From Trypanosoma brucei (Eukaryota), in the NCBI GenBank assembly GCA_000002445.1, contig CP000068.1, positions 1,504,001 to 1,568,000 of the forward strand: a stretch of DNA of 64,000 nucleotides, given 5' to 3'. Position 1 is the stretch's first letter. Each line of letters starts with the position of its first letter. Of this stretch, positions 2,857 through 54,699 are shown piece after piece. The notes below the pieces were generated by a model. The model was given only the letters and a program-made list of their open reading frames with translations. It was not told where the DNA came from and did not search any database. The position numbers and the translations under genes were made by a program.

Positions 2857-2925
2857 TAATATTCGTATATACACATTCACAACACTCTCCTATCACTATT
2901 ATTAATATCGTAATAACATCCTTAA
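2857..2925 (-). repeat. VSG-associated 70-bp repeat unit (reverse-complement orientation)
   Basis: aatattcgtatatacacattcacaacactctcctatcactattattaatatcg matches the 70-bp repeat core (CACTCACAACACTCTCCTATCATTATTA) plus TAA/TTA triplets. It lies about 2.4 kb 5' of the minus-strand VSG at 1-445. Confidence 0.8.
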
Positions 2926-3189
2926 GTAAATTCACTACTTTTAATTTTGATTGTAAACCTAAATTATTTATAATATTCATAAAATATACAGTGTAAAATT
3001 ATTCATAATAGCACTCATTTTTCATATCCTATTATCTTCCTACTTTACACCTATATGTCACTTTCACATCAAATTATTTTTAATAATTTTTTAACAATTT
3101 CACTTAATTGAACATTTTCATCAGAAAATATTAAAATATATCACAATTTATCGGTTTTATTAACTTCTTTCGAAATATAAAAAGTATTT

Positions 3190-4721
3190 AAAATACCAAA
3201 ATACTATCAAATCTACAAAAGTAGCAGCAATCAGGGCAAATTTCTTATTTAAGAGTAAATTGGAATATTTTCACTCTGTCCCCTAAAATTCGCAACCATA
3301 TTTGCACTATTCTTCCGTTTTGTCTTTGCATTTCTCTGTCTTTGCTGCACCTCCCTCTGTTTCTGCTGTGTTTTTCTTTTCTTCTTCCTCTTTAGGCTTG
3401 CATTTTCCTTCTGTTTCAGTTTTTTCTTCCCATTTGAAGTTAACTTTGGGGCATGTTGTATTTCTGTTGTAATGGTCGCAAGCTACGCTGTTGGGTGCGG
3501 ATTTATCTACTGCAGTTGTTGAATGGGTAGCGCCGCTTACACCTGTCCATTGGATTGCCTTTTCTGTTTTGATTTCATGTTTGGCTTCGTTTGCTAAATC
3601 GCCTAGTATTTTGTTGCTCCGATTCCCTGCCTCGAGTTGGGGCTGCCTCTCCTCCATGTGATCCGCTAGGTTAGAGAACGCCGACACCCATGTTATTTTG
3701 TCCAGACCCGCTGGCCTCGCAGCTTCGTAGCCGGTGATTTTTATGCAAACCCCGCCGTTTTTTTTTCCATCGCAGGCTCCTCCAATTTTCGCGCCTAGGT
3801 AGCCGATCCCGTTAGCGGTATGGAATAGGGCACTGAGTTCTTTTATCGCGTTCCTTATGTCTCTGAATATGTAGGGTTTTTTTTTCTTGGCTGAGGGCAG
3901 GTTTTTACTATCTTTACTAGGTCGTCGTCCGGAGCTTTGTTTGCGGCGGTTCTCCACCCGGTTGTTCCTTCAGCTTCCTTCGTGCAGGCGCCGTCGGTTA
4001 CCTCTGTCGAGTCGGGTTTCTCGCACAGGCATGTTAGCGTTGCTAGTACAGTTTTGGCTCTTTTATTGCTGTCCGCCGCTTCACAGACTGTTTCCCTTGC
4101 TGTGTTTTGCGTGTCTTCGCCGAATGCGGCGTTGGATGTCTCCGCTCGTCTTTCGCTCACGTCGGCCCCATAGACTGCCATTTTAAGCGTCTTGCTAGCC
4201 TCTGCTTGTGTGCGTTCCAGCGCCGCAGCTGAAAGCTGCGGAAACGTCGACTTGATTCGGCGCGCCTTGTTACCAATCTTGCTTATGAACGCATGAGCGG
4301 CCGCCTTTTGTTCCTGTGTCAGCGCTCCCACCTTCAGTTCTTTCACATCCTGTGGTCCGCCGTCTTCGAGTACATCAAGGGCGGCTTTCTGCCAATCTGA
4401 CCAGCAATTGTCGTATCCGAACTTGTCTTTTCCGGCCGCTTTGGCATCGGCGTGCACGCTTTTGGCCGTTTTGTCTTCGTACATCATGTTTTGCCATTTG
4501 TAAGTTGAAGTTGATAGATTGAGCGCCTGAATAAGTTCATAGTCGTTTGAGCTTAGCGAGCTTGGCTGTGGTAAGTCGAAGGGGCTCTCCGCTATCGTCA
4601 CAAACTTGCACAATACCGCATACTCGTGGCGATTATCACCGGTGTTTATTGCTGCTGTTGTCTTATTAACGACAATTCAGGCTGAGAAAAAGCTTAGTAG
4701 CACTAGTGTAGCCTTGGTCAT
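3190..4721 (-). pseudogene. VSG pseudogene (B-type N-domain); in-frame TGA inside the signal peptide (MTKATLVLLSFFSA*), plus a frameshift between ORFs 3855..4613 and 3307..3957
   Basis: ORFs 3855..4613 and 3307..3957 overlap in different frames. The Cys-rich C-terminal domain (...CKPKEEEEKKNTAETEGGAAKTEKCKDK) and a GPI-like tail (LLLNKKFALIAATFVDL) sit in shifted frames. A degenerate 16-mer lies at about 3130-3145. Confidence 0.8.
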
Positions 4722-5616
4722 AGCTTTTTCTGATCGTGTCTGGCTTTGGATGCAGCAAAAAATGCTTGTTTGTGAGTGTACAGTTTTAAGAAAGTGTTGT
4801 TGTCGTCTTCTTGTGACACAGATCTCGGCTCGCTATCGGTTCTTCACCTTGCACTTGTGTTAAAACGGTATTTGATTAAGGTAATGTTTATTTTATGATG
4901 TATCAGGCGTTTTCACGCTGAATATACTTGGTTCAAATTGGCTATACAGCCACCGCCGCTCATGTCCTTCTAGCTAGTTCTGTGACTTTTTTAATGGTTT
5001 AATGCTAATGTTCAGTCACTTCTACAAAGTAAACATATGTTTGCTGCTCACTTATTAAATGCTTTTCTATTCCCCAATAACCTACTAAAGTAAACATATG
5101 TTTAAACACTCTATGAATACCTTGTCCCTGGGAGCGTAACATAAAGGCAGCCGTCCGCTCCGTAATAAAAAACAGAGCTGTTTACATCTCTGGTGCTTAA
5201 CCTATCAATTTCTGTCTGAAATGCGAAGAACAATTTCCCACATAATTTTATTTGGTACTGTGTTGAAGCGAATAATGTTTTCGTTCGGTATTTTCGTTCC
5301 TCTTTTTCGTCTACTGTTTCTGCTTTTACGGACGACGCAGTAGCTCTATTATGCCTGTATACATTAGATTCTGTCGCACCATTGTTGTTCTCTTCATCAT
5401 CTACTTTCGAATAATGATTCCCTTCGTTATATTACTTATGAGAATACGGATATACAATCTTTCTCTCTTTCTCTTTCTCTTTTTTAACAACATTCTTTTA
5501 CTCTATTCATTTATTTTAATTAATGTCTCACTTTTCTACTCATATCGCACAACAAAAATTGTTTTAAGTGCTTCTTTTTTACTTTTCAATTTATTCTTAG
5601 GAATGACTCTTAAAAT

Positions 5617-5690
5617 AATATATTCATACATACACACTTACAACACTCTTCTATCATTATTATAATTATATTTATTGTAGCCCTGGCTAA
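5617..5690 (-). repeat. 70-bp repeat unit (degenerate) with flanking TAA-rich tract
   Basis: tattcatacatacacacttacaacactcttctatcattattataattata, about 0.9 kb 5' of the VSG pseudogene at 3190..4721. Confidence 0.7.
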
Positions 5691-5894
5691 TATTTGTATA
5701 ATAAAAAAGAGGTAACCAAAATATCAAAAATTGTTATATCGCTCATTTTTCATACCATATCTCTAATCTTACTAATATACACCAACATGATACTATTACG
5801 AACATTTTATAAATTTCCAAATTTTAAAATTATTAAATTTTTTTTAAAAATATTAAAATGTATTAATTTTTTCCAGTAATTCTTAAAAGTGTTA

Positions 5895-7386
5895 TGCTAT
5901 AATAAAAAATGCAAGCAAAAAAGTGGCATTATTAATTTTAAAAATTGCTTGCTGTGGTGTTTGTTTTTCTATCTTTATCTTCTTGTTTTGCTTTTTCTAG
6001 TTTCTTTTACCTCCTTTTTCAACTCGCACTCTTTTCTTGTTCGTTAAAAGTGCATCCCTTGGCTTCTAGAGCTTTACATTTATCTTCGCTGTTCCCTGCT
6101 TCATTGCATTCTTTTTCCTTGTCTTGCACGCTTGTAACTTTGCGCTGAGAATTTTCCATTGCCTTTTGTAATTCCTTTTCCTTTGCGGCTAGTGCCAGAA
6201 CTCTTTGTCCTTGATAGTACGTCAACATCTTTCGTAAGTGATTAATGTCCTTTATCTGGCTTAGTTTTTCGTTCTGACTGAGGCTGGGTTTGTATGTGTT
6301 TCTATCAATTGTAACAGTGTTCATGTTCTCCCGCACTTTATATGAATCCAGATGTTTGCCTGCTGCATACAGTTCTTCTGCTTTCTGGTTGACTTTGGTA
6401 TCATCAGCTGGCATGTATTTGGAGGTGTCTTTTAGTACATAAGTTTTTGTCGCTTGTTTGGCCGCCTCGCTCGCCAGTATTGTCTCTTTTGTCGGTTTGG
6501 CCCTTTCCGTCGTTTGCATCAAAGCATTGGCTTCCGCTGCCGCCACTGCATTTCGCGCTTTGATCCAGGGATCGATGTTGACGTCAGCCTGGTTTGCAGC
6601 ATAGGTAGGTATCGCTCGCCCGCCGAGGTTGGCGCCACCAGCGGGTAGGTAGAAATAGCCTCCAGCATCGGGTTTGTCGGCTGCTGTGCTGCCAGTGTCT
6701 AGGATGCCGTTGCCTGTGTGTCCCTTCGTTAGCGCGCACGAAACGCTGCCACCGGCTTTTGTTAGTCCGGTTGCTTCTGCTGTTGTCTTTGTAGTCCCAA
6801 AGAGTTTGTCTTTCTTGTAATTGAAGCCGGTATCCGGCGGTGTTGTTTCGCTTGCCAAGTCTAATCCGCATTGCCCAATGGTTGCAGCTCCTTGCTGTGC
6901 TGCAGTCGCTGCGTTGTGTAGACAGCCGTCAGTTCCGGTCGCCGCGTAAGAGGATGCCGCAACTTTTAAAAACTATGCGACATATCCGCTTAAGAATGCC
7001 ACCCGAGTTGCTGCCGAAACTGCTGATTTGACTGCGGTCTCTATCTCATCGCCGGCCAGATCTGGTTGTTCGCTGACGGCCACCAGTATGGGATAAACCT
7101 TTGCTGCATCGTGTGGTTGTGACCTTTCTATTAAGATTCTAAGCTGGTATTCTTGAACTTGGTTTTTGGCCGCTGTTGCTGCCCCGGTTGCTAGTTTGCC
7201 TTCAAAGTGCTTGGGGTAGCCGGCCTGGTTCTTTCCGATCTTACAAAGTGGTGTCCAGGCCGCGTTGTCTATTGCATTCCCAGCGTCTGCATCGCTGTAT
7301 AGCACAATTAGATGCATAGCTGCTATTTGAATTATAGTTTTGGTTATAGTTGGAATGCTGTGCTGACGGTGCTGGTTGCCTATCAT
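5895..7386 (-). pseudogene. VSG pseudogene (A-type N-domain, signal peptide plus AAWTPLC); several frameshifts
   Basis: ORF 6973..7386 encodes the signal peptide and N-terminus (…MHLIVLYSDADAGNAIDNAAWTPLCKIG). ORF 6019..6858 encodes the mid and C-terminal domain (…CNEAGNSEDKCKALEAKGCTFNEQEK). The frame breaks between 6858 and 6973. The C-terminal tail (LEKAKQEDKDRKTNTTASNF* then KINNATFLLAFFIIA*) is split across two frames. Confidence 0.85.
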
Positions 7387-8187
7387 TTGAAATGAAAGCA
7401 GGATGCAGTTTGGGTTTTGATTTTTTTTGAGGAAAAAAGAGCCAGCTGAATTTATGGGGCGCTTTTAGGCTTCACTTTTTCCTGCTGTTATGTCTTCAAA
7501 GCCTAGTTATACTGCAGTTTTATTAAATCACCAACAGACCTCTCTGTTTTTTCCTGCTTCTTATACAGATTATCTTTGGTGTAACTCTTACGCTTTCTTT
7601 TTTTTTAAGTTCTCACTACAACATCCAACCTTTTAAAACATTCCAGTCCATCTTTACTCTATTTACATAAAAAAACCTTTTTACCCAGCCTATTTCACCA
7701 TGGAAAAACTCCACGTTCATTTTACGAACGGTTGCAGTTGCAAGTCAGACTTTAACATAATTTTCCGCCATAAGATTAATAAACAAAGCCCAACCTACAA
7801 ACTCTTTAGCATCGTTTATTAATCTTTGTATGAAATATGGGGTATCATCTAAACCTTATCCTGATGTATTCTCTTCCTTTACGGCTTTTCCAGATGCTTC
7901 TGCGTATAACGTGGCGAAGCCATTTGGTTTTTACACTAGACTATTTCATTTCATGACTGCCCCTTCTATTATCTCCTTGTTTATGATAATGACCATCTTC
8001 ATATTTGAGGTAGAAGCTGTGTACATTTCACTTCTATCTCTTCCCTTTTATCTTTCAAAGTCTCTTTGCGTAATATTCCTCCTGTTCCACAACACACTCA
8101 TACCACCTTACTTACTCCACTGTGCTCTTATCGGCGTTTCGGTGCTTATATTTTCTTTTCCATCCATTTACTCTTCACAACCCTTAT

Positions 8188-8402: not shown

Positions 8403-8418
8403 GTGTTAAAATATATCA
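8403..8418 (-). promoter_or_regulatory. VSG 3'UTR conserved 16-mer (TGATATATTTTAACAC on the gene strand), perfect copy
   Basis: Plus strand reads gtgttaaaatatatca. The same perfect copy occurs at 13852..13867, 23436..23451, 44423..44438 and 58792..58807. One-mismatch copies occur at 21947..21962, 26819..26834, 37582..37597 and 50554..50569. Each lies 50-150 nt below a VSG stop codon. Confidence 0.85.
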
Positions 8419-8479: not shown

Positions 8480-10030
8480 TCACAAATTACAACCAACTCA
8501 CAGAAGAAGCAGCATACTCAGAACCAAGTTCTTATTGACCAGAAAACTGAAAGATCGGCAGTCGGACTTGAGAAGTTTGCCTGTACCATCAACAAAATCA
8601 ATCCATCCGCATACTGCTTACTTAACCGGTTTTACACCCTTGTTTTTAGCTTCACAGGCTTGCTGGGTTTGGTGTTTACCGCAACCTACATCTGTACTTG
8701 TCTCCCCTGTTCCTGCTGCTGTATTTTCTGTTCCTGGTTTAGGTGTGCATCCCTTTTCTTTGTCATAGTCGCAGTGAGCTTCTGGGCATTCTTCTGCAGT
8801 TGTGTTTGTCGTTTTGCATTTAGTCTGTTCCTATACTGACTTTGCCTGGCTTGGGTCTTGGCCTTGATGTATGCTTATCGCCAGGGCTGAGGTCGATGCA
8901 TGTTTGATGCTAGCCTTTGCTTTTTGTACTGTTTCTTTAATTTGAGTTAGTATTCCTCCGCCGCTGTTTTCTCGTTTTCCATGTCTTCTAGCGTCACCGC
9001 CATATCTGTCAAGTCGTGAACCCACTTGACTTTTTTGTAGGACTTGTTCCGCGTTCGTGCTGAAATTTGGAAATTTCACGCAGACACCGCTGCCACTGCT
9101 GCCGTTGCAGTCACTGCTGACGAAGGTGCCGAGGTAACCGTCGCTTGATTCGACGTGAGTTAATTTTGTGACTGCTTCAACGCGGCTTGAAAGTTCATGG
9201 TGGGTTATTTTTGTTCATTTCACGTCGGAGCAGCTTCCTGCGATCGTTTTGAGTTTGCCGTCGGTGGGGTTAGTGTTCTGGCCGGCGGCCCCTGCTTCCC
9301 ATGCCGTCCCGCCGTTAGTCCCTTTGTTGCATAGCCATGCCAGCTTTTCCAGGGATGCGGCTGCTTTTGATTGTCCATCTCCCGCTGTACAGAGGGCTTC
9401 GCGGTTGCCTGTGCTTGCGCCGCCAAAAACAGCGTTGCGCGCCGGGTTAGGTGAGTGTTTTGTGGCTGAACTGTGGATCGCAGTGTTTAGCGTCTTCGCC
9501 AATTCCTGATTTTTTATGGTTTTAGTTGGCCTAGTGTCTGTTGAGTACAGTTTCCATAGGACTTGGATCTCTGACGCTGCATCACTTAGAGCTTTTCGAC
9601 CAATTATGAGCCGTTGCTCGCTTAGTTCCATCGCACCACTTGCTTTAACTTTCTCCTTCATTGGATCGGTTGTTACTGCTTGTATGGCTTTCTTCCAGTC
9701 GTTCCAAAAGCCCTCATAGCCTAGAATTGTTTTCTGTGCTTCTTTTGGGGAGTCTTAAGCTGCTTAACTGTCTGTTCCCTTGTAAAATATTGATTGCCAT
9801 GCAGGTGTTGACACTGAGAAATTCAAGGCTTGTATGAACTGGTAGTCGTCGTCTGTTAGTAGTAGTATCACTGGTATCTCGATCTCTGAGTCTGTTAGCG
9901 CGATAATGTTACAAATGGCCGCCTTCCCTGCTCGGTTCGCGCCTCCGACTATGTCTGCTGCTTGCTTCGATCTCAGACAGCAATTCATCAGCCCCATTCG
10001 GTTATTTTCGACTTTATTGCTTTCTATGGT
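8480..10030 (-). pseudogene. VSG pseudogene (B-type), heavily fragmented
   Basis: Minus ORFs 9764..9997 (…TDDDYQFIQALNFSVSTPAWQSIFYKG), 9215..9661 (mid domain) and 8831..9079 lie in different frames. A Cys-rich C-terminal domain is readable in 8590-8830 (…EECPEAHCDYDKEKGCTPKPGTENTAAGTGE…). The 16-mer is at 8403. Confidence 0.8.
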
Positions 10031-10129: not shown

Positions 10130-11240
10130 TCAACAGTTGTATTCGTACAGAAAGGTTTTTCGGGGCTGCGTAGTCGGCTTAGTGGTGAGTGGTGTTGGCG
10201 GTCTGTTGATAGTCATGTTCAACCACGCGCACTCCTCCTCTGTAACGTGGTGAAAAACAATAACGTTAGGATTTTTTTCTACAAATTTGTCGAGCGGCCT
10301 TTTTACATGCATCACATAATGACAATCTTGCATATCCACTGTCAACAAACCATCAATTTTCATTTTATGCCTTAATACCTCCCCCACCATAATATTCTCG
10401 TTCAATACGGCATATTCAATATATTTCTCAAAGTTTAGAAAACTCACTCTGCCGGATAAAAGTTTGGAAATTTCCGAGAAGCCAGCTATTTCTTTTACAA
10501 CATCCCTTGAAATTGTATTTGCATACCCAACAACATACCACGTCAGTTTTCCAATATACTCGCCAAATTTACCCAACGCTCTTCCCATATTCAATTTCTC
10601 TCTTGGAAAAACCTCCAGATATTTTATATGCAGCGCCACCCTCATAAAAATATTATCATCTGCCTTCATAATATAAGGATTAGTTGGATTAAATATTTTA
10701 ACTGCGAATTTGAACCACAGATATGTTTTTCTACTCATCGTGAGTTCTGCTTCCCATCCCCAATTGCCCGCATCTCCAACTTTTTAATTTGTTGTTAGAT
10801 TCACATCGCAAACAGGTAAAATAATAATATCCTTATTTAACTCTGCCTCTTCTTCAGCGATTACTCTGAGCTCGCAATTGTTATTTGTATGAGGTAAAAG
10901 GGTATATACTACAGACAACTTCCCAGTAAAATTATTTACCTTCCTTGCCACTTTATGGAGACTCCAACAAGCTTCTTTCTGCAAGTTTCTCCTTATAAAT
11001 CTTTCATCATTATCTATTGAGGGTATTCCAGCTATAACCAAATAATCTTCAGTTTTCCAAATCCCCCTTACATCCTTAGAAACAAATTTCATATACTCAT
11101 CCTCAACAATTTCTAGTGAAATAGATTCACCATCACTAGACAAGCTGTATAGTGATCCACACAAACTGATGCCCATAACAATAAAAGATAAATAACCTAC
11201 TGTTGCATAAATACATATTTTATACCTTATAACTTACCAT
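10130..11240 (-). pseudogene. beta-1,3-glycosyltransferase-like (GT31/GT67-type) pseudogene, copy 1; a single in-frame TAA at 10784-10786 plus an N-terminal frameshift
   Basis: ORFs 10784..11176 and 10130..10738 are in the same frame, separated only by TAA where copy 2 has AAA. The joined protein carries motifs resembling beta3GT family signatures: a hydrophobic stretch then DNDERFIRRNLQKEACW (compare ERRxxIRxTW), and YIMKADDNIFMRV (DxD motif, compare YVMKTDDDVF). Family assignment is from motif memory, not a database search. Confidence 0.45.
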
Positions 11241-12407
11241 TATCATACTAATGAAAACTTCGAACATCGTATGAAATCATAGAAGATATTAATATAATAT
11301 GTGAGCTTCATCATGACCTGAAATTGTTTGCGTCAACTTTCCAGTTTTAATTGTAATATATTTTGCTATTTGTCTACTTTTATTGCATATATCGTTTATG
11401 ATTGTTGTGTTATTCTAATGCAGCCCAGCTCCAGCTGCATGAATGCATCATAAGCAAAGATGTAACTCTAACTTTTCACCAGGAGTAATAACCTTGATTT
11501 CTTTTCACGTTATCATGCTTTATATTAGGCCGTTTTATCTTATTGCTCAAACTGTTTGACCCTCAAATAACTCTTTTGTTCTGTATTTTTTCGCTGCGCT
11601 TCGCAAGTATCGGGTCAGTGACCACTCTCTATATGAACTATTTGCTCCTTGAGAGGTCTTAGTGTGTGGAAAGTATACCAGTATGGAATTGGAGGAGTAT
11701 CGGCATTGATTCTATTCACTCCAGAGAGGTTTCACATCGGTTCATGTGCGTACTATTTCAAGTAGTTTCCGTGTTTTTCATCTTTTTTTTCCACAGTAAT
11801 ATATTAGTTGTCCTAGTTTTAAGATCTTTTTCTTGCATATTGTTTTATTTTTTCGCACAGATGTTGACCATATTTAATACATCTGATAAAAAAACGACTT
11901 CGACATCACTTCTCATTTAACCAATTTATTACTGCTTTTTTTCTTCAAAGATAAACAATAAGATTCTCCATAAGATTAAAAACCACAATAAGTTCCATTT
12001 TCGCAGTAGAAAGAATTAGAGTTTACTGCGAAATACGTGGAATTATCTCCTCTCGTATCATTTTCTTTTTTACCATGCGTTTTTATATCCAGTTGCTACA
12101 CTATATTTTCTTTGCTTCTTTTTCGTGTTATGTACCTGTTTCTGTGCCTGAAATGGTAATTCCATTTGGTTCGCACACTGTACTTTGTCTTTCCCTCATA
12201 TGCTCCTCCATCATCTCCTTCGCATACGTTGATGATTCCCATTGTTGTGTTTGTGTTAGAAACTTAGTATATTCCATATTTCTCTCTGTGTTACCTCTAG
12301 AGACGCATTTAACACTTTTATCTTACCTGTTTGCTACTATTAAGCTTTTTCCATTGTGACAATTGTCTCTATGTTGTCCCTCAATTGATTCTTTACCACT
12401 TGTCTCA

Positions 12408-12480
12408 TTATAATATTCGTATACACACTCACAACACTCTCCTATCATTATTATTATCATCATCATCAATATTTACTATT
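12408..12480 (-). repeat. 70-bp repeat unit
   Basis: tataatattcgtatacacactcacaacactctcctatcattattattatcatcatcatca. Confidence 0.85.
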
Positions 12481-12718
12481 ACTATATTATAATTTCCTAC
12501 AGCATCTGTAAAATCAACAAAATAGCAAAATATTTCAAAATATATTTAATTTGGACACCATATTACCAGCTCCTTTTCACTAATAGGCTACTTCCGTTAA
12601 AAAATTAAGAATTTCCAAAATCTTAAACATTTCGCAAAAGTTGAACAAAAACTGTCAAATTTCATAAATTTCACAAATTTTATGAATTTTACAAATATTC
12701 TTAGAATTCTCACAGTCC

Positions 12719-12928
12719 CTATAATTTTCTGAAATTCACAAAAGCAGAAACAATAAGAGCCAATTTCTTATTGACGAGGAAACTGAAATCTTTGCATTCT
12801 GTTCCTTCCCATTTGCAGTTTCCATTCTTTCTCCAATCAGCTGCTTTTTTAAATCCTTCGCATTCTTTGTTGGGGGATCGTGGCTGAAGCTGCATAAGCT
12901 TTGCCGGCTCTATAATGGTGCTCGCCAC
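12719..12928 (-). pseudogene. VSG C-terminal fragment (about 65 aa of C-terminal domain plus GPI signal) with its own 3'UTR; no N-terminal domain
   Basis: ORF 12719..12928 reads …SPNKECEGFKKAADWRKNGNCKWEGTECKDFSFLVNKKLALIVSAFVNF. The 5' end abuts the A-rich/telomere-like island at about 12930. Confidence 0.8.
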
Positions 12929-21475: not shown

Positions 21476-21760
<285 letters not shown>

Positions 21761-22219: not shown

Positions 22220-23430
22220 TAGACGGCTTTTAGGTTAAAAACGTACCTCCGGAAGTTGAGCACCCTTGGCCGGGGTGTGCCAGCGTCAGATGGCGCTGCC
22301 GAAGTTTAATTGCTAATTATAATTATCAGCTGTTCCCCAATATGAGTATTTTTAAATTTATTTCCTCTTTAAAAGCAAATCGTTTCCCGCAGCGAAAGTG
22401 CCACGCGGCAGCGTTTTTGAAAAAAAAAAATTTGCTAGCCGCGTGCACCGCAAAACGCAAAGCTGAAATTCACGAAAGTAAAATAAACATAGGCGTAACG
22501 ATGTGAAGCTGAAAATAAAAAGAAAAAAGAAGCGCGGATAGCTCCAGTGGAAATAAGTGCCAGCCTTGTGCTTAAATAAAAAAAAAGAGCTGCATCACTA
22601 AAAAAATACAAATTTTTTTAGTGATATGAAGCAATCCAGGACGGAGGTGTGGAAAAAAAATTAATTAGCAGTCAGAGGAAAATTAACCCGATAACCCGAA
22701 ACACTCTAACCCTAACCCTGACCCTGACCCGAACCCGCTAACCCGAAACAGCCTGACCCGAAACACCCGCGCAAAAATGGGCAAAGAAAAAGTTGAGTGC
22801 TAAAACAAAAAAATTTAAAAAATCAAATCGCAAAAAAAAAATAAAAAAATCAAAATAAAAAACCAAAAACCGCGCAAAAACCGAAAATTAAAAGAAAAGA
22901 TTAAAAAAAATTTAAAAAATTGGAGCTTCGCGGGGTCGTGGGGGGGGGGAGGAGGGTTAGGGTCCGCATAACAAAAGAGCCGGTGCACGACTAAAGAAAA
23001 AAAAATTTAAAAAAACACAAAAAAATAAATTAAAAGCCAGCGCAACACAAAACTGCCGCTGCATCACTAATATGAAAAAAAGAAATTAAACGTCAGTGAA
23101 AAAAAGGAGGATCTGCTGCATCACTAAAAGAAAAAACTAAAACAATCCGCGATGGAGGTGTGAGTTGAAAAAAAAATTAATTAGCAGGAAGAGAGAAAAA
23201 TTAACCCTAACCGAGTAACCCTAAGCCTAATCCTAATCCTAACCCTAACCCTAACCCTAACTAACTAACCTAACCTAATTAACCACCCCCCCCATTCCTA
23301 CCTACCCCCCCCCCCACTTCCACAAAAAAAAACGGGAAAAGAAGGGAAAAAATTTTAAGTTATCAGAAAAAATTTCTAGACAATCAGACAGTCAACTTAC
23401 AAAAAACAGCTCAATTTTTTCGGCGGAATT
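22220..23430. repeat. A-rich island with degenerate telomere hexamers (island 2). C-strand-like tracts at 22701-22760 and 23203-23280; GGGTTAGGG at 22954-22962; G10 and C-rich homopolymers
   Basis: Plus strand reads …ctctaaccctaaccctgaccctgacccgaacccgctaacccgaaa…, …ggagggttagggtccgcataacaaaagagccggtgc… and …ttaaccctaaccgagtaaccctaagcctaatcctaatcctaaccctaaccctaaccctaactaactaacc…. An internal duplication is present (…ggaggtgtggaaaaaaaattaattagcag… at 22650 and 23150). Confidence 0.75.
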
Positions 23431-23508
23431 TAAAAGTGTTAAAATATATCAGAAAGTTTTTCAAGGAGCAAATTTTTAGCAAATTTCTTTTAAAAAGAGG
23501 GGAGGGAT

Positions 23509-40410: not shown

Positions 40411-40595
40411 TAATATTCATCAAATAAATAAAATAAACAAAATAAACAAAATTAGAACATCACTCATTTTTCATACCTTATCTCTCTGTTACTTTACATC
40501 CATCGGCCACCTTCATACGAAGGTTTAAATAATAGCATATTTTCATCGAAAAGTGTGAAAATATAACAGAGTCGCAAAAATATAGGTAAAAATTT

Positions 40596-42197
40596 TAAAA
40601 CAGTAAGGCCGTAAAAACAGCGGTCATCAGAGCCAATTACTTATTGACTAGAAAACTTCCATTTCGGCATTTCTCTGTATCCTTGTCATCCTCACCATCT
40701 TTGTCCTTTCTGAAACCACAAACGGGGGTTTGGCCTGCTGTGTTTTCAGCTTCGCATTTGGCTTTGTCAGTGCCGTGTTTGGTGCACCTGTCTGAAGCAG
40801 TTTTTCTCATCTTTCCCTCCTGTTTCTTGAGTTGCTTTTTCTGCTTCTTTTTTGCTCTCTTCACTCAATGTGCACCTTTTCTTTGGTTCTTTTGCTTCGG
40901 CGTCCCATTTGCAGGATGGTTTGCACTCTGTGTTTTTGTTTATCCTATTGCATTTTTCTTCGGCTTCTTCTTGGTTTTGTTTATTGTTTTCTGCTGCTAC
41001 TGCTGCACCTGGCGCTTTTTGGGATTGCTGCTGTATAGCCATTGCATTCAGCTGCAGGAGGTTTGTTAGGCTTTCATTGAGGCTGGTTAATTGAATCTCT
41101 GCCTGCAAAGTAGTGCGTTGCTCATCCTTTAGTGCCTGTTGCTTTTGAGCTGCTTTATCAAGAGCGCTTAGCCATGTCGGCTCCTGTATCGTGTTTGCCG
41201 CACTTACAAACGCTACACATGGACCTGTGCCTCCCGCGTCAGCGCCGTTGCAGTTGCCCGCTGCCCCTGCTGAGCCGACGTATCCTATGTATCCTACGGC
41301 GCCGCCAGTCCCTTTCGGTTCGTATAGCAGCGCCCTAATGCTGCTGCCGGCCTGTGCTATGTCCGTTTGCTGGTTAGCTTTATCGTGGTTGCCTTCGCTG
41401 CTGCAGTGTTCCGTTATTTGTGTCCACGCTGCTAGTGGTTTGCCTTGAGCCCCGAAATCCTGCTCTGTAGCTTGGGTTTTGTAGCGTGCCGCGGCGTTGT
41501 TGCTGGTACTGTCCGAGGCGCATAGACATGTCATGGTTTCTGCTAGTGAATTTTTGCTTGATGAGCCGCTTTTGCTGTTGGTGCCGCAGTGCGCTTCCCT
41601 GGTCGCCCCTGTGCCGGTTAGCTTGAGGTTGACTTTGTTTCCGCCGGGCCCGTATATTGCTTCCTCTAAGGCCGACTTGATTGCGGCGGCAGCGTCGGCT
41701 TCTTCTAAATAGTCTTTGGCTTGGTCCGCTAGAGTTTTCATTAGTTCGACGGTTTTGTTTATTTGCATGTGCAGTGGGCTCGCCGGCTGCGCCGCGATCT
41801 TGAGTTTCTGTTTTTCTTCTGGAGCTAAATTTTTTAGGTAGTTGGCTGCCTCTTGATACTGTGCCTTTGAGCTTCCCTTGCACTTTTCAGGAATCTCAGA
41901 GTCTCCCGTTGCCGCTTCTCCTGATGTGGTTGTTTTGTCTGCCATTTTTGCAATTGCGGAGAGCTCGCTTAGAATTAAAGCTATGTGTTGTGTTCTAAGA
42001 GCCGCATCCTTCGCTGCCGCAGACGGCTTGTTCTTACTTTGGAGCTTTGTGGCAGCCAGCACCACGTTGCATAGCAGTCCAAATGTTTGTCTGTTTTCAC
42101 CTTTGGTCGCGGTTCCCGCTTCAGTGGCTGCCGCGTACGTTATAAGCAGCAATGCTACCGCCACTACCGCTTTAGTTGGCCTTTGGTCCAATCGCAT
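40596..42197 (-). pseudogene. VSG pseudogene (A-type; N-terminal ORF of 476 aa intact; frameshift in the C-terminal domain plus a TAA inside the GPI signal). Paralogue of the VSG at 50606..52147
   Basis: ORF 40767..42197 reads MRLDQRPTKAVVAVALLLITYAAATEAGTATKGENRQTFGLLCNVVLAA… and ends …KKRCTLSEESKKEAEKATQETGGKDEKNCFRQVHQTRH*. The C-terminal domain continues in another frame (ORF 40637..40864: …RCTKHGTDKAKCEAENTAGQTPVCGFRKDKDGEDDKDTEKCRNGSFLVNK*LALMTAVFTALLF*). Confidence 0.85.
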
Positions 42198-42360: not shown

Positions 42361-43458
42361 TCACCATGGACGTTTTGGGACGTCACTTCGACTTAATAAA
42401 TCTGGCGGCCCATTGGAATGGCGGCTCGGGTGAAGCCTTTGCTGCGGTTTCATTGTAATACTGTCGCAAACAATACGGTTGCCATTCACTTCCATGGATC
42501 GCATTAAAATTCTTTTCACATGCATTACATAATGACAATCTTGCATATCCACCGTTAATAACCCCTCAATTTTAAATTTATTCTTTATAACTTCCACGAC
42601 CATAATATCTTCATTGAGTGCTCTAAAATCAATATATGTTTCGACATTTCTGAATTTAATTTCTGATTTTACTAATTTTATCAAAAGCTCATAATCAACA
42701 ATTTTCTTAACTACATCCCTTGATAGTGTGGACGCATAACCTATTGTGTGCCATGTAATTTCGTCACTAAATTCTTTAGGATAACCAACCGCTCTTGCCA
42801 CATTCAATTTCTCCATTGGCAATATTTCAAGGCACTGTAACAACAATGGCACCCTCATAAAAATATTATCATCTGCTTTCATTATATAAGGGTTTGTTGG
42901 CTTGAATAATTACACTGCAAATTTAAACTACAGATACGTGTTTCTACTCATCGTGAGTTCTGCTTCCCATCCCCAATTACACCCCTCTCCAACTTTTTTA
43001 TCTGCTGTAGGATTTACATCGCAAACTGGTAAAATAATAATATCCTGCTTTAACTCCGCCTCTTCTTCAGCGATTACTCTGAGCTCGCAATTGTTATTTG
43101 TATGAGGTGAAAGGGTATATACTACAGACAACTTCCCAGTAAAATTATTTACCTTCCTTGCCGCTTCGGGATAACTCCAACACGTTTCCCTCTGAAGGTT
43201 GCGCCTTCTGAATCTCCCATCATTATCTATGGAAGGTATTCCAGCTACAACCAAATAATCGTCGGCTTTCCAAATCATCCTTACATCTTTCGAAACAAAT
43301 TTAATACACTCATCCTCAACAACTTCTAGTGAAATAGTGTCACACACGTCAAATAAGCTGTATAGTGACGTTCCTAAATTAACAGAAATAACAATTAAAA
43401 AAAGTAAACTATCATTAACCAAATAGTTTGCAAATACTTTATAAGATGCTATTCCCAT
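42361..43458 (-). pseudogene. beta-1,3-glycosyltransferase-like (GT31/GT67-type) pseudogene, copy 2; two in-frame stops (TAG 42928-42930, TAA 42910-42912)
   Basis: ORF 42928..43458 has an N-terminal hydrophobic type-II-like anchor (LLFLIVISVNLGTSLYSL), then …YLVVAGIPSIDNDGRFRRRNLQRETCW…. ORF 42361..42882 reads MKADDNIFMRV…LTVDMQDCHYVMHVKR…. It is collinear with copy 1 (10130..11240). Confidence 0.45.
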
Positions 43459-44117
43459 ATTATTAGAAAACTATTAATATTTGTAAAATCAAAAACGATA
43501 TTTAGAAAATAAGTAAATGCTCTTCACCAAAGTGTTTACATAAGCAATTCCAAGGTATTGTCATGATGTAGCTGTTAAAAAGTCTATGTTAATATTCTGG
43601 AATTTTTATATAACCTCTCCTCTATATTTAGTTTTAGTAGTTATCTAGAGCCACATATAGTGCTTCTAAACAATATAAATCCTTCTGTTCTCTAGAATTA
43701 TTCACATTTTCCTCCAATGTATTTTTGTTTAATTACAGTAGTTACCTGCATCTATGTGTTCAGAAACGCTAATAATTTTACTGTTTATTTGTAGTAACTA
43801 CGACTAACATCCATTTTCGTGACTCTCGCATCACTATAACTTTTGAAACTTATGTAGTTGCCGTCTTGGGCAAAATAATGACACAGTATGGGCTGCACAC
43901 TTCATCTTCTCTCTTACTTATTGTACCCTCTATCATCTCAATGTGCATAATGGTGTACACCGTTACATTTGTGCTCGAATTTACGCCTCTACAATACTCG
44001 TTTCCGTCTGCCTCCTTGACTCAGCTGCTCTTCACATTATTTACTTGGTCTTGTCGCGCCCTTGACATTGTTTCGACTGTTGCTATTGCGGTAAACCATT
44101 TAGTATCTACAAACACT

Positions 44118-44215
44118 AACATTACAATAATATCAGTATATACACACTCACAACACTCACCTATCATCATCATCATTATTATTATTATTATCATGGTAAT
44201 AACATCTTAAACTAT
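44118..44215 (-). repeat. 70-bp repeat unit with a short TTA run
   Basis: atcagtatatacacactcacaacactcacctatcatcatcatcattattattattattatcatgg. Confidence 0.85.
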
Positions 44216-50214: not shown

Positions 50215-50395
<181 letters not shown>

Positions 50396-50605: not shown

Positions 50606-52147
50606 TTAAAATAGTAATGCCACAAAGGCAACCGACATTAGAGTAAATTTTTTATTAAAAAAAATACTGGAATCATTGCAAGCAATATTTTTCCATTTAC
50701 AGCTTTTGTCATCCTCACATTTTGCCTTATCAGTTCCGTGTCTTGCATATCCAGATGTATCTGTTCCTTCTCCTGCTTTTTCTACTGCTTTTTTGGCTTC
50801 CTCGCTCAATGTGCACTTTTTGTTGTGTTCCTTTGCTTCGCCGCTCCACGTGCATGGCGGTTTGCAATCTGTGTCTTTTTCTTTTTTATTGCATCCTTTT
50901 TCGGCTTCTTCTTGTTTTGTTGAGTCACCTGAGGCTGTTTCTGCTGCTGCTGCTGGACTTGCTGTTGGCCGCTTAAGCGCTTCCATGCAGTTTAGTGCTA
51001 GGAGGGTCGTTAGGGAATTATTGAGTGTGTGAATTTGTGCCTGTAGTCGAGTTATGGCGGCCTGTTTCCCGTGTAGTGCTGTTTGTTGTTCCGCTGCCGT
51101 CGCCAGTTTGCCGAGCCATTCTGGCGGTGCTATATCGGCTGGCCCGGTCCGAAAGCTTGCGCAGGCACCACTGTTTCCGCTGTTCTCACCGTCGCAGTTG
51201 CCTGTGCCCTGACCAGCGATATGGCCTATGATGCCGGTTTTGCCTGTCGTACCTTTGGCTGCGTTTAGTTCGGCCTGCAGTGCAGCTGTAATTTCAGTTA
51301 GTCTTTGCCTGTGTTGCGTTGCTGCGGTCCCGACCGTCTTCCGGCAGTCTTGCAGTATTGTCGACCAGTCCGTTATTTCTTCGTTTTGTTCCCCGAAGTT
51401 TTGGTTGCCTGTTGGGGTGCTGTAGCACGCCGTGTTTGTTCTCGGTCCTGCGGCGGTTGACGCGCACAGGCAAGCTATTGTTTCCGCGATTGATCTTTTG
51501 GCCGATGCGCCTGGGCCGGTGTCGCCCTTGCCGCAGTGGGTCTCCCTGTCCCCGCCGGCGCCTGGCAACTTCGGCTTGGTTGTTTTTGTCGTTACACCGT
51601 AGATGGCTTAAATCAAATGTTTTTTGACTGGGTCGTTGGTGTCGCCGTTTGAAAATATTTTGTGTGTTGTAGCAATCTTTATGAGTTTTTGCAGCGTGTT
51701 GTTTATCTTTTCCTTGAATCCGCGGTTTTCTGTGGTGGCCTGTAGAAGCTTTTGTTTTTCTGCTTCTGGTAAGCCTTTGAAATATGTTGCAGCTGCCGTG
51801 CACCGAGAAAGTTTTTCCTTTTTACATGCAGTTGAAATAGCGTCATTGTCGTCTGGTTTTGGCTTGCTGTATGTAATAAGCGACGCAACTTTGCTTATAG
51901 CTGTTGGTTGTTCCATGATTAATGACATGAATTGTGAATTTTGTGCTGCCTCCTTGGAAGCCTGTGCTGGTGCCGGTGCTGCTGAGCCTTCTTCCTCCGC
52001 TAACACCACTGCACATAACAAACTAAATGGGCCTCGGTTTTCTCCTTTGCTGGGTCCAGCTGCTGATACGTGTGTTGCTATTGACACGAACACCGCACAT
52101 ATGGCTACTAACAACATTGCTTGGGGTTTTTTCTGACGCTTAAACAT
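50606..52147 (-). pseudogene. VSG, near-intact: a single in-frame TAA (51605-51607) is the only break in a complete 500-codon VSG. Paralogue of 40596..42197
   Basis: ORF 51608..52147 reads MFKRQKKPQAMLLVAICAVFVSIATHVSAAGPSKGENRGPFSLLCAVVLA… and ends …DPVKKHLI*. The same frame continues AIYGVTTKTTKPKLPGAGGDRETHCGK… (ORF 50606..51568) to …KKCTLSEEAKKAVEKAGEGTDTSGYARHGTDKAKCEDDKSCKWKNIACNDSSIFFNKKFTLMSVAFVALLF*. The paralogue has LEEAIYG where this has LI*AIYG, so the stop is a GAA to TAA change. Confidence 0.85.
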
Positions 52148-52789
52148 TGCTGTTCGCTGAAGTACTAATTTTCGCTTGGTTAGGGACTTGTTGGTTGTAT
52201 AACAGTTGAAGATACATCGATGCCGGGTTGTATTCTGGTTAATTTCCGCAGAAATGCTGCAAATTTGAAACCGTGTAATCTCGCTATGGTTGAAGTGTTA
52301 CTTATTATGCCGCTTATCAGCCGTTATTGCCCGTTTTAAAGGTAATACATCTGACTATGCTCATTGTTTTTTCTTTTCGTTGATGGTAAGGAACATAATG
52401 GTACTGCCATAAAAAGTGACAGCTTCAGCAATTCATTTATAAGTCGCTCCATTCGTATGATAACAGGTGGCAGCTTCAGCTTGTAGTGAGGTGCATGTTC
52501 GGTGTTTGCCACTGCGCCTTCAACGTGGAAATCTCTGCTTTTGCTTATTTTTGCTGCGAACTTTCCGTGATTTTGGGAATGGCGCAGCGAAACATTATGC
52601 TTGTGTGAAGCCATGACCGCTTAAGTGTCACCTTATGTGTCGGAAAGATATACGGTGATTGATAAGGTTTAAAAGTCTTTAAATTTTCAACCGCTGTGTG
52701 AAAACATCTCTTAACAATATATTGACATAAACTCAGACGTAAAAAATACCCTTTCATTTATACAGCTGACACGTTTCCTCACATTCCCC

Positions 52790-53346
52790 ACATTCAATTT
52801 CTCCATTGGCAATATTTCAAGGCACTGTAACAACAATGGCACCCTCATAAAAATATTATCATCTGCTTTCATTATATAAGGGTTTGTTGGCTTGAATAAT
52901 TACACTGCAAATTTAAACTACAGATACGTGTTTCTACTCATCGTGAGTTCTGCTTCCCATCCCCAATTACACCCCTCTCCAACTTTTTTATCTGCTGTAG
53001 GATTTACATCGCAAACTGGTAAAATAATAATATCCTGCTTTAACTCCGCCTCTTCTTCAGCGATTACTCTGAGCTCGCAATTGTTATTTGTATGAGGTGA
53101 AAGGGTATATACTACAGACAACTTCCCAGTAAAATTATTTACCTTCCTTGCCGCTTCGGGATAACTCCAACACGTTTCCCTCTGAAGGTTGCGCCTTCTG
53201 AATCTCCCATCATTATCTATGGAAGGTATTCCAGCTACAACCAAATAATCGTCGGCTTTCCAAATCATCCTTACATCTTTCGAAACAAATTTAATACACT
53301 CATCCTCAACACCTTCTAGTGAAATAGTACCACCTTCACCAAACAA
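52790..53346 (-). pseudogene. GT31/GT67-like glycosyltransferase pseudogene fragment, copy 3 (middle ~560 bp only; carries the same TAG and TAA as copy 2)
   Basis: 52790-53340 is base-for-base identical to 42800-43350. ORFs 52892..53095 (+) and 42902..43105 (+) encode identical peptides at a 9,990-bp offset, and ORF 52918..53346 matches 42928..43458 apart from its 5' end. Confidence 0.5.
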
Positions 53347-54699
53347 GCTTTATAGCGAAACACTAACGCTAGTTCCCATAATAATAAAGACTAAACTAAC
53401 CGGTGTATCATAAATACTTCATATATACTTCATACCTTCCTATTATCGTACTAATGAGAAGCTTGTAATTCATTTAAAAAATAATAGACAACATCGATAA
53501 AAGAAGTGTTAGTTCCATAAATCTATTTAGTGAAGGAATCCCTGTTTACATATATAAGTCATCATATGATATTGTTATGATATAAGTGTTAAAATGTGTA
53601 TTTTCCTGTCTTCAGCATTTATTTGAGAAACATATACTGTATTTGTTTTTGCTTTAAAAGTGAGACTCAGCCAAACCTAATGCAACAAAGCCGACGAACT
53701 ACACTTTTCCTTACATTATTCACATATCCCCTATAAGCAATGTCATAAAAATTTCGAATCTTAGTTGCGGTAGGTAATAGAGAATTACTAAAAATTTTGC
53801 TTCTTTCCTGTGCTAAAGACCCTTACCATTCTCTTTCATTATGAGACTTCAATAACCATAAATTTATGAACTACTGTCCCTTTTTTTCGATCATCATCTA
53901 TAGAAGCAGAAGATATCTTTTTTTTTGCGCAAAATATGGAACACGATCTATGCTGATGCATTTTTCCATCTGAGGTACATTTCCACGCCTGCCATTCTTC
54001 ACTTTGTATTTTATGTGTTTAATTTTACTCTATTGCTGCTACCAGTACCGATGACATAACAATCTGATTTTACCATTCACTTTATTTTGATTTTGCATGA
54101 TAGCCATATCCTTCTTTTTGTGCATGATAATTCCCATAATTATATCGATTTTAAGGTGCGTATACTCCATTTCCATCTACCCTTTTTTTGCTTTTTCTTT
54201 CATAATATTCCTCTTACTCTCCTACTTACTATCGCATTTACTATACCCATCATTCTCAACCCACACTTGTCATCGTTTCAAATGCTTCTGTTTCGGCTGT
54301 TCATTCTGCTATTACCGCTACTATAATTATCATACATATACGAACCAACAAAATGTTCTTATCATTAGGCTTGTCCCTTCCATCACCATTACTATTTTAA
54401 ACCTAACTAGTATAAAAAATATAAATCAAATTAATATTTTTTCATAATTTCACTCATTTTTCACGTCATATCACCTTTCCACTTTACGTCCATAGGCCCA
54501 TTTCATGTACATTTCACTAAAATATAATATTTTTCAGATTTTTTAAAACTTTCAAAAGTTTCACGTTTCTCAAAAGCTTTAAAAATGTGTTAACATATAT
54601 TATATTTCATAAAATTCTCTCAAAATAAAAATATTCATAAAAATCATAAAATTGAGCAAAAATATTTAGATTTTTATAATCCAAATATAAAACAAAAAT

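What the first reader, a model, noticed from the sequence alone, without database searches (positions are those of the whole stretch)
10130..11240. A beta3-glycosyltransferase-like pseudogene family sits immediately 5' of VSGs in place of the proximal 70-bp repeats
Three copies (10130..11240, 42361..43458, 52790..53346) lie on the VSG strand 100-650 bp upstream of VSG start codons (VSGs 8480..10030, 40596..42197, 50606..52147). The 70-bp repeats are displaced to their far side. The inferred protein has a type-II anchor and GT31-like motifs (…IPSIDNDERFIRRNLQKEACW…; …YIMKADDNIFMRV…), reminiscent of the trypanosome UDP-Gal/UDP-GlcNAc-dependent glycosyltransferase family. Copy 1 is disabled only by a single TAA (AAA in copy 2) and an N-terminal frameshift. 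Copy 2 has two nonsense codons but no frameshift in about 1 kb. Such mild lesions suggest recent inactivation, or that the segments are kept as conversion donors. The consistent position just upstream of a VSG suggests they travel with VSG cassettes.
Basis: partly seen in the sequence, partly recalled or inferred. Interest (0 to 1): 0.6.

Follow-up and report, generated by a model that had tools for sequence, protein, structure and literature searches.

The report
Dead glycosyltransferase genes inside VSG cassettes
Three broken copies of a trypanosome sugar-transferase gene (CAZy family GT67) sit just upstream of silent surface-antigen (VSG) genes in a Trypanosoma brucei-type subtelomeric array; this is an ordinary, already recognised kind of subtelomeric gene relic.

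Summary
Three homologous segments on the VSG strand (copy 1 10130-11302, copy 2 42361-43514, copy 3 52787-53600) end 132, 163 and 640 bp upstream of VSG pseudogenes. [quoted passage not shown] All three are pseudogenes, and all three have the catalytic DDD motif changed to DDN.

- **70-bp repeats:** the claim that the copies replace proximal repeats is not supported. In GT-free cassettes of this window the repeat also lies 0.8-2.5 kb upstream of the VSG.
- **Layout elsewhere:** the same GT-then-VSG order recurs at three T. equiperdum / T. b. equiperdum loci. Homology there never extends beyond the GT block.
- **Selection:** pairwise dN/dS is 0.2-0.3 with dS 0.5-1.4. These are old paralogues that were constrained for most of their history and inactivated late.
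- **Gene conversion:** two tracts stand out, one of 524 identical nt (copies 2 and 3) and one of 104/105 nt (copies 1 and 2).
- **Intact relatives:** no intact member of this T. brucei subclade was found among annotated proteins.

GT genes and pseudogenes in T. brucei subtelomeres are already documented. Interest is low to moderate.

The parts
10130..11302 (-). GT67 pseudogene copy 1, nearly full length. Main frame runs 11230-10130. Start codon position reads ATA (11230-11228). In-frame TAA at 10786-10784. DDD changed to DDN (AAT at 10654-10652).
42361..43514 (-). GT67 pseudogene copy 2. TAG starting at 42930, TAA starting at 42912, DDN (N codon starting at 42867). Homology to other GT copies ends near 42508.
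52787..53600 (-). GT67 pseudogene copy 3, truncated at its 3' end at 52787. Stops at 53421, 53352, 52920 and 52902. DDN (N codon starting at 52857). Its 5' part is of the copy 1 / P0004 type.
8480..9997 (-). VSG pseudogene (B-type N domain plus C-terminal domain, 6 in-frame stops) 132 nt downstream of copy 1. Its 3' 16-mer is at 8403-8418.
40596..42197 (-). VSG pseudogene (VSG_B; the C-terminal domain is in another frame) 163 nt downstream of copy 2. 16-mer at 40553-40568.
50606..52147 (-). VSG pseudogene split into two ORFs (VSG_B plus C-terminal domain) 640 nt downstream of copy 3. 16-mer at 50554-50569.
12385..12500 (-). 70-bp repeat (core 12423-12441, exact match) about 1.1 kb upstream of copy 1.
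44105..44215 (-). 70-bp repeat (core 44142-44160, 1 mismatch) about 0.65 kb upstream of copy 2.
54240..54290 (-). Degenerate candidate 70-bp repeat upstream of copy 3. There is no core within 3 mismatches; this rests on a weak alignment only.
42798..43321 (-). 524-nt tract identical to 52788-53311 in copy 3. This is a recent gene-conversion or copy tract that lies wholly inside the GT block and includes both shared stop codons.
10845..10949 (-). 105-nt patch with 1 mismatch against copy 2 (43058-43162) and copy 3, set in a background of about 78% identity. Candidate older conversion tract.

Best explanation
The three segments are non-functional relics of one T. brucei-specific subclade of the GT67 (beta3-glycosyltransferase-like, UDP-Gal/UDP-GlcNAc-dependent) family.

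Each relic lies in the normal spacer between the 70-bp repeat and the VSG of a silent array cassette, on the VSG strand. That spacer is equivalent to the 'co-transposed region' of expression sites.

Shown here:
- Family identity.
- Disabling lesions in every copy.
- The same GT-then-VSG layout at three loci of other T. brucei-group genomes.
- A coding-type substitution pattern: old paralogues, long under purifying selection.
- At least one recent and one older patch of ectopic gene conversion between copies.

Inferred:
- The paralogues were once working genes embedded in VSG arrays.
- Selection on the whole subclade was relaxed fairly recently.
- The copies now persist passively, carried by array duplication and shuffled in patches by the same homologous recombination that acts on neighbouring VSGs.
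- Because they lie between the 70-bp repeat and the VSG, they would be copied along whenever such a cassette is transposed from its 70-bp repeat. They are passengers, with no role of their own.
For: **Identity**
- Copy 1 is 39% identical over 317 aa to the chromosome-2 paralogue XP_951590 (E 9e-77).
- Pfam Galactosyl_T passes its threshold in the homologues.
- A family profile hits human B3GNT2 at the DDD segment.
- The exhaustive profile search returned 163 proteins; every one whose name was looked up is a trypanosome protein.

**Pseudogene status**
- Stop codons, a lost start codon, a truncation and DDN.
- DDD is invariant in six homologues.
- All 14 subclade proteins in the databases are fragments of 153-345 aa.
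- L001-L003 are also broken.

**Position**
- Spacing of the 70-bp repeat and the 16-mer in all cassettes.
- The same order is seen in L001, L002 and L003, with GT-to-VSG gaps of about 160, 315 and 468 bp.

**Evolution**
- dN/dS is 0.20-0.30 in 14 of 15 pairs (0.44 for the nearly identical copies 2 and 3) and dS is 0.5-1.4.
- Out-of-frame controls give 0.6-1.1, and third codon positions differ about twice as often as second positions.
- One internal stop in copy 1 fits at most about 2-4% neutral divergence.

**Conversion**
- 524 identical nt between copies 2 and 3, with an abrupt 3' border where homology ends.
- A 104/105-nt patch between copies 1 and 2; 0 of 10,000 column shuffles reach it.
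Against: - If selection was lost only recently, it is odd that every sampled copy in three genomes is broken.
- It is also odd that the same W codon after '...TYL' is a stop in window copies 2 and 3 and marks the end of TREU927 fragments P0185, P0186 and P0187.
- An unannotated intact source copy cannot be excluded, because complete T. brucei genomes could not be searched here.
- The GT-then-VSG proximity (downstream gap smaller than upstream gap in 5 of 5 measurable loci) hints at more than passive placement.
- The three extra loci were found through annotated ORF fragments, which is a biased sample.
- The permutation test for the 105-nt patch assumes equal rates along the gene.
Confidence: 0.8

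Rival explanations
1. The association with VSGs is coincidental. In a head-to-tail VSG array, almost all intergenic DNA lies between a 70-bp repeat and the next VSG, so any relic there appears to be 'just upstream of a VSG with the 70-bp repeat on its far side'.
For: In this window the stretch from the VSG 3' 16-mer to the 70-bp repeat is only about 150-350 bp. The stretch from the 70-bp repeat to the ATG is 0.8-2.5 kb. Roughly 85% of intergenic DNA is therefore in that interval, and three of three has a probability of about 0.6. All genes in the window are on one strand. No flank homology travels with the GT block.
Against: Six of six loci examined share the same order and strand. The GT 3' end is 130-640 bp from the VSG ATG, whereas the gap on the other side is about 0.65-1.1 kb. 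In 5 of 5 measurable cases the downstream gap is the smaller, which is only marginal (p about 0.03). With dS of 0.5-1.4, neutral flanks would be unalignable even if GT and VSG had been duplicated together, so the absence of flank homology is uninformative.
Confidence: 0.3
2. The copies form a usable archive. Like VSG pseudogenes, they are kept as donors for segmental gene conversion that builds or repairs functional GT67 genes. A variant of this view is that some copies are still functional and the lesions are assembly errors.
For: Low dN/dS and few lesions. Patchy conversion between copies. Mosaic subtype structure against the TREU927 fragments.
Against: No intact recipient was found. Every subclade protein in a 5.8-billion-protein database is a fragment. 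The nearest intact T. brucei paralogue is 39-41% identical, which I judge too divergent for homologous recombination. The two stops of copy 2 are reproduced exactly in copy 3, so they are not read errors. The catalytic DDD is DDN in all three copies. The observed conversion spreads lesions rather than repairing them.
Confidence: 0.08
3. The conserved ~1-kb GT block acts as an extra upstream homology box for VSG recombination, a 70-bp-repeat-like role. This would help move or activate the VSG immediately downstream.
For: The block is the only sequence conserved between otherwise unrelated cassettes. It lies 130-640 bp from the VSG ATG on the VSG strand. It does undergo ectopic recombination.
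Against: The one recent tract ends inside the GT block and does not reach the VSG. Copies are 73-82% identical outside the conversion patches, which I judge poor substrates for RAD51-type recombination. Only 3 of about 17 cassettes in the window carry a block. No expression-site copy is known to me, and the expression-site survey PMC2567434 does not contain the word 'glycosyltransferase'.
Confidence: 0.05

Closest known systems
T. brucei GT67 family (UDP-Gal/UDP-GlcNAc-dependent glycosyltransferases; TbGT3, TbGT8, TbGT10, TbGnTI/II)
   Same: Clear sequence homology: 39% identity and E 9e-77 to the chromosome-2 member XP_951590. From memory, not checked here, I take that protein to be TbGT3 (Tb927.2.3370). 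The same length class (~350-385 aa), an N-terminal hydrophobic anchor and the catalytic segment 'YIMKADD(D)IFMRV' are shared. PMC8477195 describes the family as type II Golgi enzymes with a DDD motif and says predicted pseudogenes exist.
   Different: The window copies are broken (stops, lost start, truncation) and read DDN. They belong to a separate T. brucei subclade for which no intact member was found.
Annotated TREU927 / T. equiperdum fragments of the same subclade (XP_803396, XP_844696, Tb10.v4.0188, Tb11.0730/0740, Tb11.1830/1840 and others)
   Same: 57-78% identity. They show the same kinds of lesion, including ORFs that end at '...TYL' and restart at 'MKADDD'. L001-L003 lie in VSG arrays.
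   Different: None is identical to a window copy. They keep DDD, except L002 which has NDD. The window copies are not represented in the protein databases.
Subtelomeric glycosyltransferase genes and pseudogenes as a known component of T. brucei subtelomeres
   Same: PMC2854126 lists glycosyltransferases as 1.1-1.5% of subtelomeric genes. PMC4288722 reports multiple GT pseudogenes and says GTs are frequent in subtelomeres and variable among strains. PMC5853035 describes subtelomeric expansion of two GT lineages with concerted evolution.
   Different: In the passages I searched, these papers do not describe the position inside the 70-bp-to-VSG interval, the all-broken state of this subclade, or the conversion tracts reported here.
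Mammalian GT31 beta3-glycosyltransferases (Pfam Galactosyl_T PF01762; B3GNT2 structures 6WMM, 7JHI)
   Same: Local profile match around the DXD strand.
   Different: The window copies score below the Pfam threshold (19.1 and 16.8 against 23 bits). The similarity covers only about 40-60 residues, and CAZy places the trypanosome enzymes in GT67, not GT31 (PMC8477195).
T. congolense tandem GT array (L004; P0006, P0007)
   Same: These are the closest intact full-length relatives (40% identity, 377-378 aa).
   Different: There are four intact tandem copies next to housekeeping-type genes (inositol phosphatase, Nup54) with no VSG nearby.

Membership tests
CAZy GT67 (trypanosomatid UDP-Gal/UDP-GlcNAc-dependent glycosyltransferases) | Significant full-length sequence similarity to family members | tested here: met
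   E 1.5e-151 to XP_803396 and E 1.7e-62 to a T. congolense homologue. BLASTP E 9e-77 and 39% identity over 317 aa to XP_951590. A profile search finds trypanosome GTs.
CAZy GT67 (as a working enzyme) | Uninterrupted ORF with a start codon | tested here: not met
   Copy 1: ATA at the start position plus TAA. Copy 2: TAG plus TAA plus a degenerate 3' end. Copy 3: four stops and a truncation.
CAZy GT67 (as a working enzyme) | DXD (DDD) metal / nucleotide-sugar binding motif | tested here: not met
   All three copies read ADDN. DDD is invariant in six homologues and nearly invariant across 18.
CAZy GT67 (as a working enzyme) | Type II topology (N-terminal signal anchor) | tested here: inconclusive
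   Hydropathy only. The maximum Kyte-Doolittle 19-residue mean is 2.0 for copies 1 and 2, against 2.6 for P0004 and the chromosome-2 paralogue. No dedicated transmembrane predictor was available.
GT-A fold glycosyltransferases | Rossmann-like GT-A fold | tested here: inconclusive
   The AlphaFold2 model of homologue P0001, built from an 18-sequence alignment, has mean pLDDT 47.7. That is too low for a fold search.
GT31 / Pfam Galactosyl_T (PF01762) | Score at or above the Pfam gathering threshold (23 bits) | tested here: not met
   Copy 1 scores 19.1 bits and copy 2 scores 16.8 bits. Homologues P0001-P0004 and P0006 pass with 23.3-32.1 bits. The copies are therefore described as GT31-like, not as GT31 members.
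VSG array cassette (70-bp repeat, spacer, VSG, 3' 16-mer) | 70-bp repeat upstream, VSG domains, and the conserved 16-mer in the 3' UTR | tested here: met
   70-bp cores at 12423 and 44142; only a degenerate candidate for copy 3. VSG_B and C-terminal domain hits. 16-mers at 8403, 40553 and 50554.
Co-duplicated GT+VSG unit ('travels with the VSG') | Homology extending from the GT block through the spacer into the VSG in at least one pair of copies | tested here: not met
   Homology stops at the GT block within the window and against L001-L003. The downstream VSGs share only about 200 bp of C-terminal sequence at 74% identity. At dS of 0.5-1.4 this test has little power for old duplications.
Mobile element | Discrete shared termini or terminal repeats | tested here: not met
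   The 5' and 3' homology limits differ from pair to pair (11251-11302 at the 5' end; 10233-10584 at the 3' end). Terminal repeats were not searched for specifically.

The most novel reading that the evidence does not exclude
This GT67 subclade may be a specific resident of VSG cassettes rather than random subtelomeric debris. On this reading, a once-functional glycosyltransferase gene family was physically coupled to VSGs, lying in the co-transposed interval. It would then be copied into, and transcribed from, the active expression site together with the downstream VSG. Its conserved block would still act as a recombination or co-transposition module. That could explain why many old paralogues kept coding constraint until recently.
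Probability: 0.07. Interest if true: 0.55.

Novelty: new member of a known kind. Interest (0 to 1): 0.25.

Why it matters
As it stands, this is mainly an annotation point: three unannotated GT67 pseudogenes in a VSG array, of a kind already noted in T. brucei subtelomeres.

Two side results could interest trypanosome genome biologists if a genome-wide census confirms them:
- One whole GT67 subclade appears to survive only as broken copies, although it evolved under purifying selection until recently. That would point to a lineage-wide, recent loss of some glycosylation activity.
- The copies lie inside the unit that is duplicated during VSG switching and exchange sequence in patches. They therefore offer a non-VSG, presumably unselected marker for measuring conversion tract lengths and borders within silent arrays.

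Tried and rejected
- **Genomic context lookups:** no record was found for P0001, P0002, P0005, P0187, P0183 or an intact VSG of the window. The source strain and the TREU927 loci could therefore not be inspected.
- **Structure:** The model of homologue P0001 was too poor for a fold search (pLDDT 47.7).
- **PDB search:** phmmer with copy 1 found nothing. Only the family profile reached B3GNT2, and weakly (E 0.006).
- **Flanking homology:** none was found among the GT-to-VSG spacers, the regions upstream of the GT blocks, or the 5' flanks of other VSGs, apart from one 59-nt hit next to a GT 5' end.
- **Literature:** Marcello and Barry 2007 is not held. The expression-site survey PMC2567434 and the TriTryp pseudogene survey PMC9576210 do not contain the word 'glycosyltransferase'.
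- **Rejected reading, 70-bp repeats 'displaced':** the repeats are in their usual place.
- **Rejected reading, N-terminal frameshift in copy 1:** three homologues show an in-frame start at the position that reads ATA in copy 1.
- **Rejected reading, copies 2 and 3 as a duplicated GT+VSG cassette:** their VSGs and spacers are unrelated, and only 524-571 nt of the GT block is shared.

Full report
**1. What is in the sequence**

The window is a head-to-tail array of VSG genes and pseudogenes, all on the minus strand. Pfam finds VSG_B, Trypan_glycop and Trypan_glycop_C domains in the large ORFs. Fourteen 70-bp-repeat cores lie on the minus strand, where none is expected by chance. The conserved VSG 3'-UTR 16-mer occurs about 15 times on the same strand. 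This is the signature of a Trypanosoma brucei-group subtelomere.

tblastn with the stop-repaired copy 1 protein finds exactly three matches: 11176-10133, 43389-42454 and 53379-52786. DNA homology runs 10299-11302 against 42512-43514, and 10584-11257 against 52787-53460. The finding's coordinates are therefore essentially right. The match is far beyond chance (E 7e-137 and 2e-95).

**2. Identity**

[quoted passage not shown] It hits a T. congolense homologue at 40% identity.
- It is 39% identical over 317 aa (E 9e-77) to XP_951590 on chromosome 2. From memory, I take that protein to be TbGT3.
- PMC8477195 states that these T. brucei genes form CAZy family GT67. It says they derive from a beta3GT-like ancestor, are type II membrane proteins with a catalytic DDD motif, and include predicted pseudogenes.
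- Pfam Galactosyl_T matches the DXD segment. It scores below threshold in the window copies (19.1 and 16.8 bits against 23) and above threshold in the homologues.
- A family profile reaches human B3GNT2 at the same segment (E 0.006).
- An exhaustive profile search returns 163 proteins. Every one whose name was looked up is a trypanosome protein.

**3. Lesions, with corrections**

*Copy 1*
- It has one internal TAA (10786-10784) where copy 2 has AAA.
- It has no frameshift against its relatives. P0004, P0186 and locus L001 start in the same frame at the position where copy 1 reads ATA (11230-11228). The N-terminal lesion is therefore a lost start codon.

*Copy 2*
- It has TAG (starting at 42930) and TAA (starting at 42912).
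- Its homology to every other copy stops near 42508, and a 10-nt gap lies in the tail.

*Copy 3*
- It has the same two stops as copy 2, plus two N-terminal stops.
- It is cut off at 52787.

*All three copies*
- They read ADDN where six homologues have an invariant ADDD.

*N-terminal anchor*
- A hydrophobic N-terminal stretch is present, with a Kyte-Doolittle 19-residue mean of about 2.0.
- The annotated TREU927 protein P0001 has an N-terminus that is simply the out-of-frame reading of this region. That 'gene' is therefore probably a pseudogene as well.

**4. Position relative to the VSG cassette**

| Copy | Gap from GT block to VSG ATG | 70-bp repeat core | Distance from 70-bp core to VSG ATG |
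|---|---|---|---|
| 1 | 132 nt (ATG at 9997, not 10030) | 12423 | 2.4 kb |
| 2 | 163 nt | 44142 | 1.9 kb |
| 3 | 640 nt | degenerate candidate near 54240-54290 | about 2.1 kb |

This is not a displacement of the repeat. In cassettes without a GT block, the repeat core lies 0.8-2.5 kb upstream of the ATG:
- 37293 to 36493
- 16405 to 15543
- 50239 to 48946
- 26629 to 24969
- 62791 to 60297

The repeat also lies only about 150-350 bp after the 16-mer of the preceding VSG. PMC4858185 likewise gives 'approximately 1.5 kb upstream' for minichromosomal VSGs. About 85% of the intergenic DNA therefore lies in this interval. Three of three copies landing there is unremarkable.

**5. The same layout elsewhere**

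Three loci could be retrieved through annotated ORF fragments:

| Locus | Source | GT block | Next VSG | Gap |
|---|---|---|---|---|
| L001 | T. b. equiperdum chromosome record CM010680 | about 5885-7046 | 7207 | about 160 nt |
| L002 | T. equiperdum OVI | 5307-6534 | 6849 | 315 nt |
| L003 | T. equiperdum OVI | about 852-2112 | 2580 | 468 nt |

- In L002 the 70-bp repeat is at 4464.
- All three GT blocks are on the VSG strand and all three are broken.
- Between the window and these loci, and within the window, homology is confined to the GT block. Spacers, upstream regions and VSGs do not match.
- In T. congolense the closest intact relatives form a tandem array of four genes beside housekeeping-type genes, with no VSG nearby.

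**6. Evolutionary signal**

- In 14 of the 15 pairs among the six DNA copies, dN/dS is 0.20-0.30. It is 0.44 for the nearly identical copies 2 and 3. dS is 0.5-1.4.
- The same calculation in the two wrong frames gives 0.6-0.8 and 1.0-1.1. Third codon positions differ about twice as often as second positions.
- A neutral simulation gives about 12 stops at 22% divergence. Copy 1's single stop fits no more than about 2-4% neutral divergence.
- Every subclade protein in the databases is a fragment of 153-345 aa.
  - The pairs Tb11.0730/0740 and Tb11.1830/1840 are two halves of single genes.
  - They are split at the same W codon that is TAG in copies 2 and 3.
- No intact member was found. The nearest intact T. 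brucei paralogue is 39-41% identical.

**7. Recombination**

- Copies 2 and 3 are identical over 524 nt (42798-43321 and 52788-53311).
  - The 3' border is abrupt: homology ends there.
  - On the 5' side identity falls back over about 50 nt.
  - The tract includes both stops, while the two VSGs are unrelated.
- Upstream of that tract, copy 3 resembles copy 1 more than copy 2 (34/50 against 27/50 and 26/49). Copy 3 is thus a mosaic.
- Copies 1 and 2 share a 105-nt patch with one mismatch (10949-10845 and 43162-43058) in a background of 78% identity. None of 10,000 column shuffles reaches 104/105, and only 1 reaches the longest exact run of 53.
- Protein segments also switch their nearest relative between TREU927 subtypes.
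- Patchy ectopic gene conversion among the pseudogenes is therefore shown. The conversion observed copies lesions rather than repairing them.

**8. Interpretation**

- **Best explanation (confidence 0.8).** These are dead members of a T. brucei-specific GT67 subclade lodged in the normal 70-bp-to-VSG spacer of array cassettes.
  - They are carried passively and exchanged in patches by the recombination that operates in the arrays.
  - Their position means they would be co-copied when a cassette is transposed from its 70-bp repeat. This follows from the established model of duplicative VSG transposition and was not tested here.
- **Rivals.**
  - The link to VSGs is pure coincidence (0.3, for the positional aspect only).
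  - The copies are an archive of donors or are still functional (0.08).
  - The GT block is a recombination homology box (0.05).

**9. Comparison with what is known, and novelty**

- GT genes and pseudogenes in T. brucei subtelomeres are documented.
  - They make up 1.1-1.5% of subtelomeric genes (PMC2854126).
  - Multiple GT pseudogenes have been reported, along with strain variability (PMC4288722).
  - Subtelomeric expansion with concerted evolution has been described (PMC5853035).
- In the papers I could search, I found no description of the cassette-internal position, the all-broken subclade or the conversion tracts. The key archive paper was not available.
- I rate this a new member of a known kind, of low to moderate interest.

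**10. Unexplained**

- DDN is shared by copies that are about 22% diverged, but it is absent from all other relatives.
- A stop recurs at the same W codon in divergent copies.
- All sampled copies are broken despite the strong coding signature.

A census of complete genome assemblies would settle all three points.

Noticed in passing
window 22692-22768 and 23202-23284: Interstitial telomere-type repeats (TAACCC on the plus strand, which is TTAGGG on the VSG strand). They lie directly 3' of the intact A-type VSG 23509-24969(-) and its 16-mer at 23436-23451. This looks like a formerly telomeric VSG now internal to the array.
   Followed up: no
window 21498-21673 and 50260-50394: Long perfect trinucleotide tracts, (TAT)58 and (ATT)45, abutting 70-bp repeat cores at 21702 and 50239. 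They are much longer than at the other repeats in the window.
   Followed up: no
window 47522-48946 (-): A 474-aa open ORF in a VSG slot (70-bp repeat at 50239 upstream, 16-mer at 47399 downstream) with no Pfam VSG hit at E<=0.01. The N-terminus lacks an obvious signal peptide and the C-terminal tail looks frame-shifted.
   Followed up: partly
window 12719-12928 (-): An isolated VSG C-terminal / GPI-signal fragment ('...CKDFSFLVNKKLALIVSAFVNF'). It lies just 5' of the 70-bp repeat that heads GT cassette 1, about 900 bp from the previous VSG's 16-mer at 13852.
   Followed up: no
TREU927 proteins P0186/P0184 (Tb11.0730/0740), P0185/P0011 (Tb11.1830/1840), P0001 (XP_803396): Database 'genes' that are really halves of single GT pseudogenes, split at the same W codon as window copies 2 and 3. 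P0001's N-terminus is an out-of-frame reading of the anchor region. These entries look like mis-annotated pseudogenes.
   Followed up: partly
window 10652-10654, 42865-42867, 52855-52857: The third aspartate of the catalytic DDD is asparagine (GAT to AAT) in all three window copies. It is not changed in L001 or L003 (DDD), in L002 (NDD) or in any annotated homologue. Either the change spread within this genome or it is recurrent.
   Followed up: partly
L004 (T. congolense CAEQ01001893) 742-7930: The closest intact relatives form a tandem array of four ~380-aa GT genes interleaved with inositol-phosphatase genes and followed by a Nup54-like gene. No VSG is nearby, in contrast to the T. brucei copies.
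   Followed up: no
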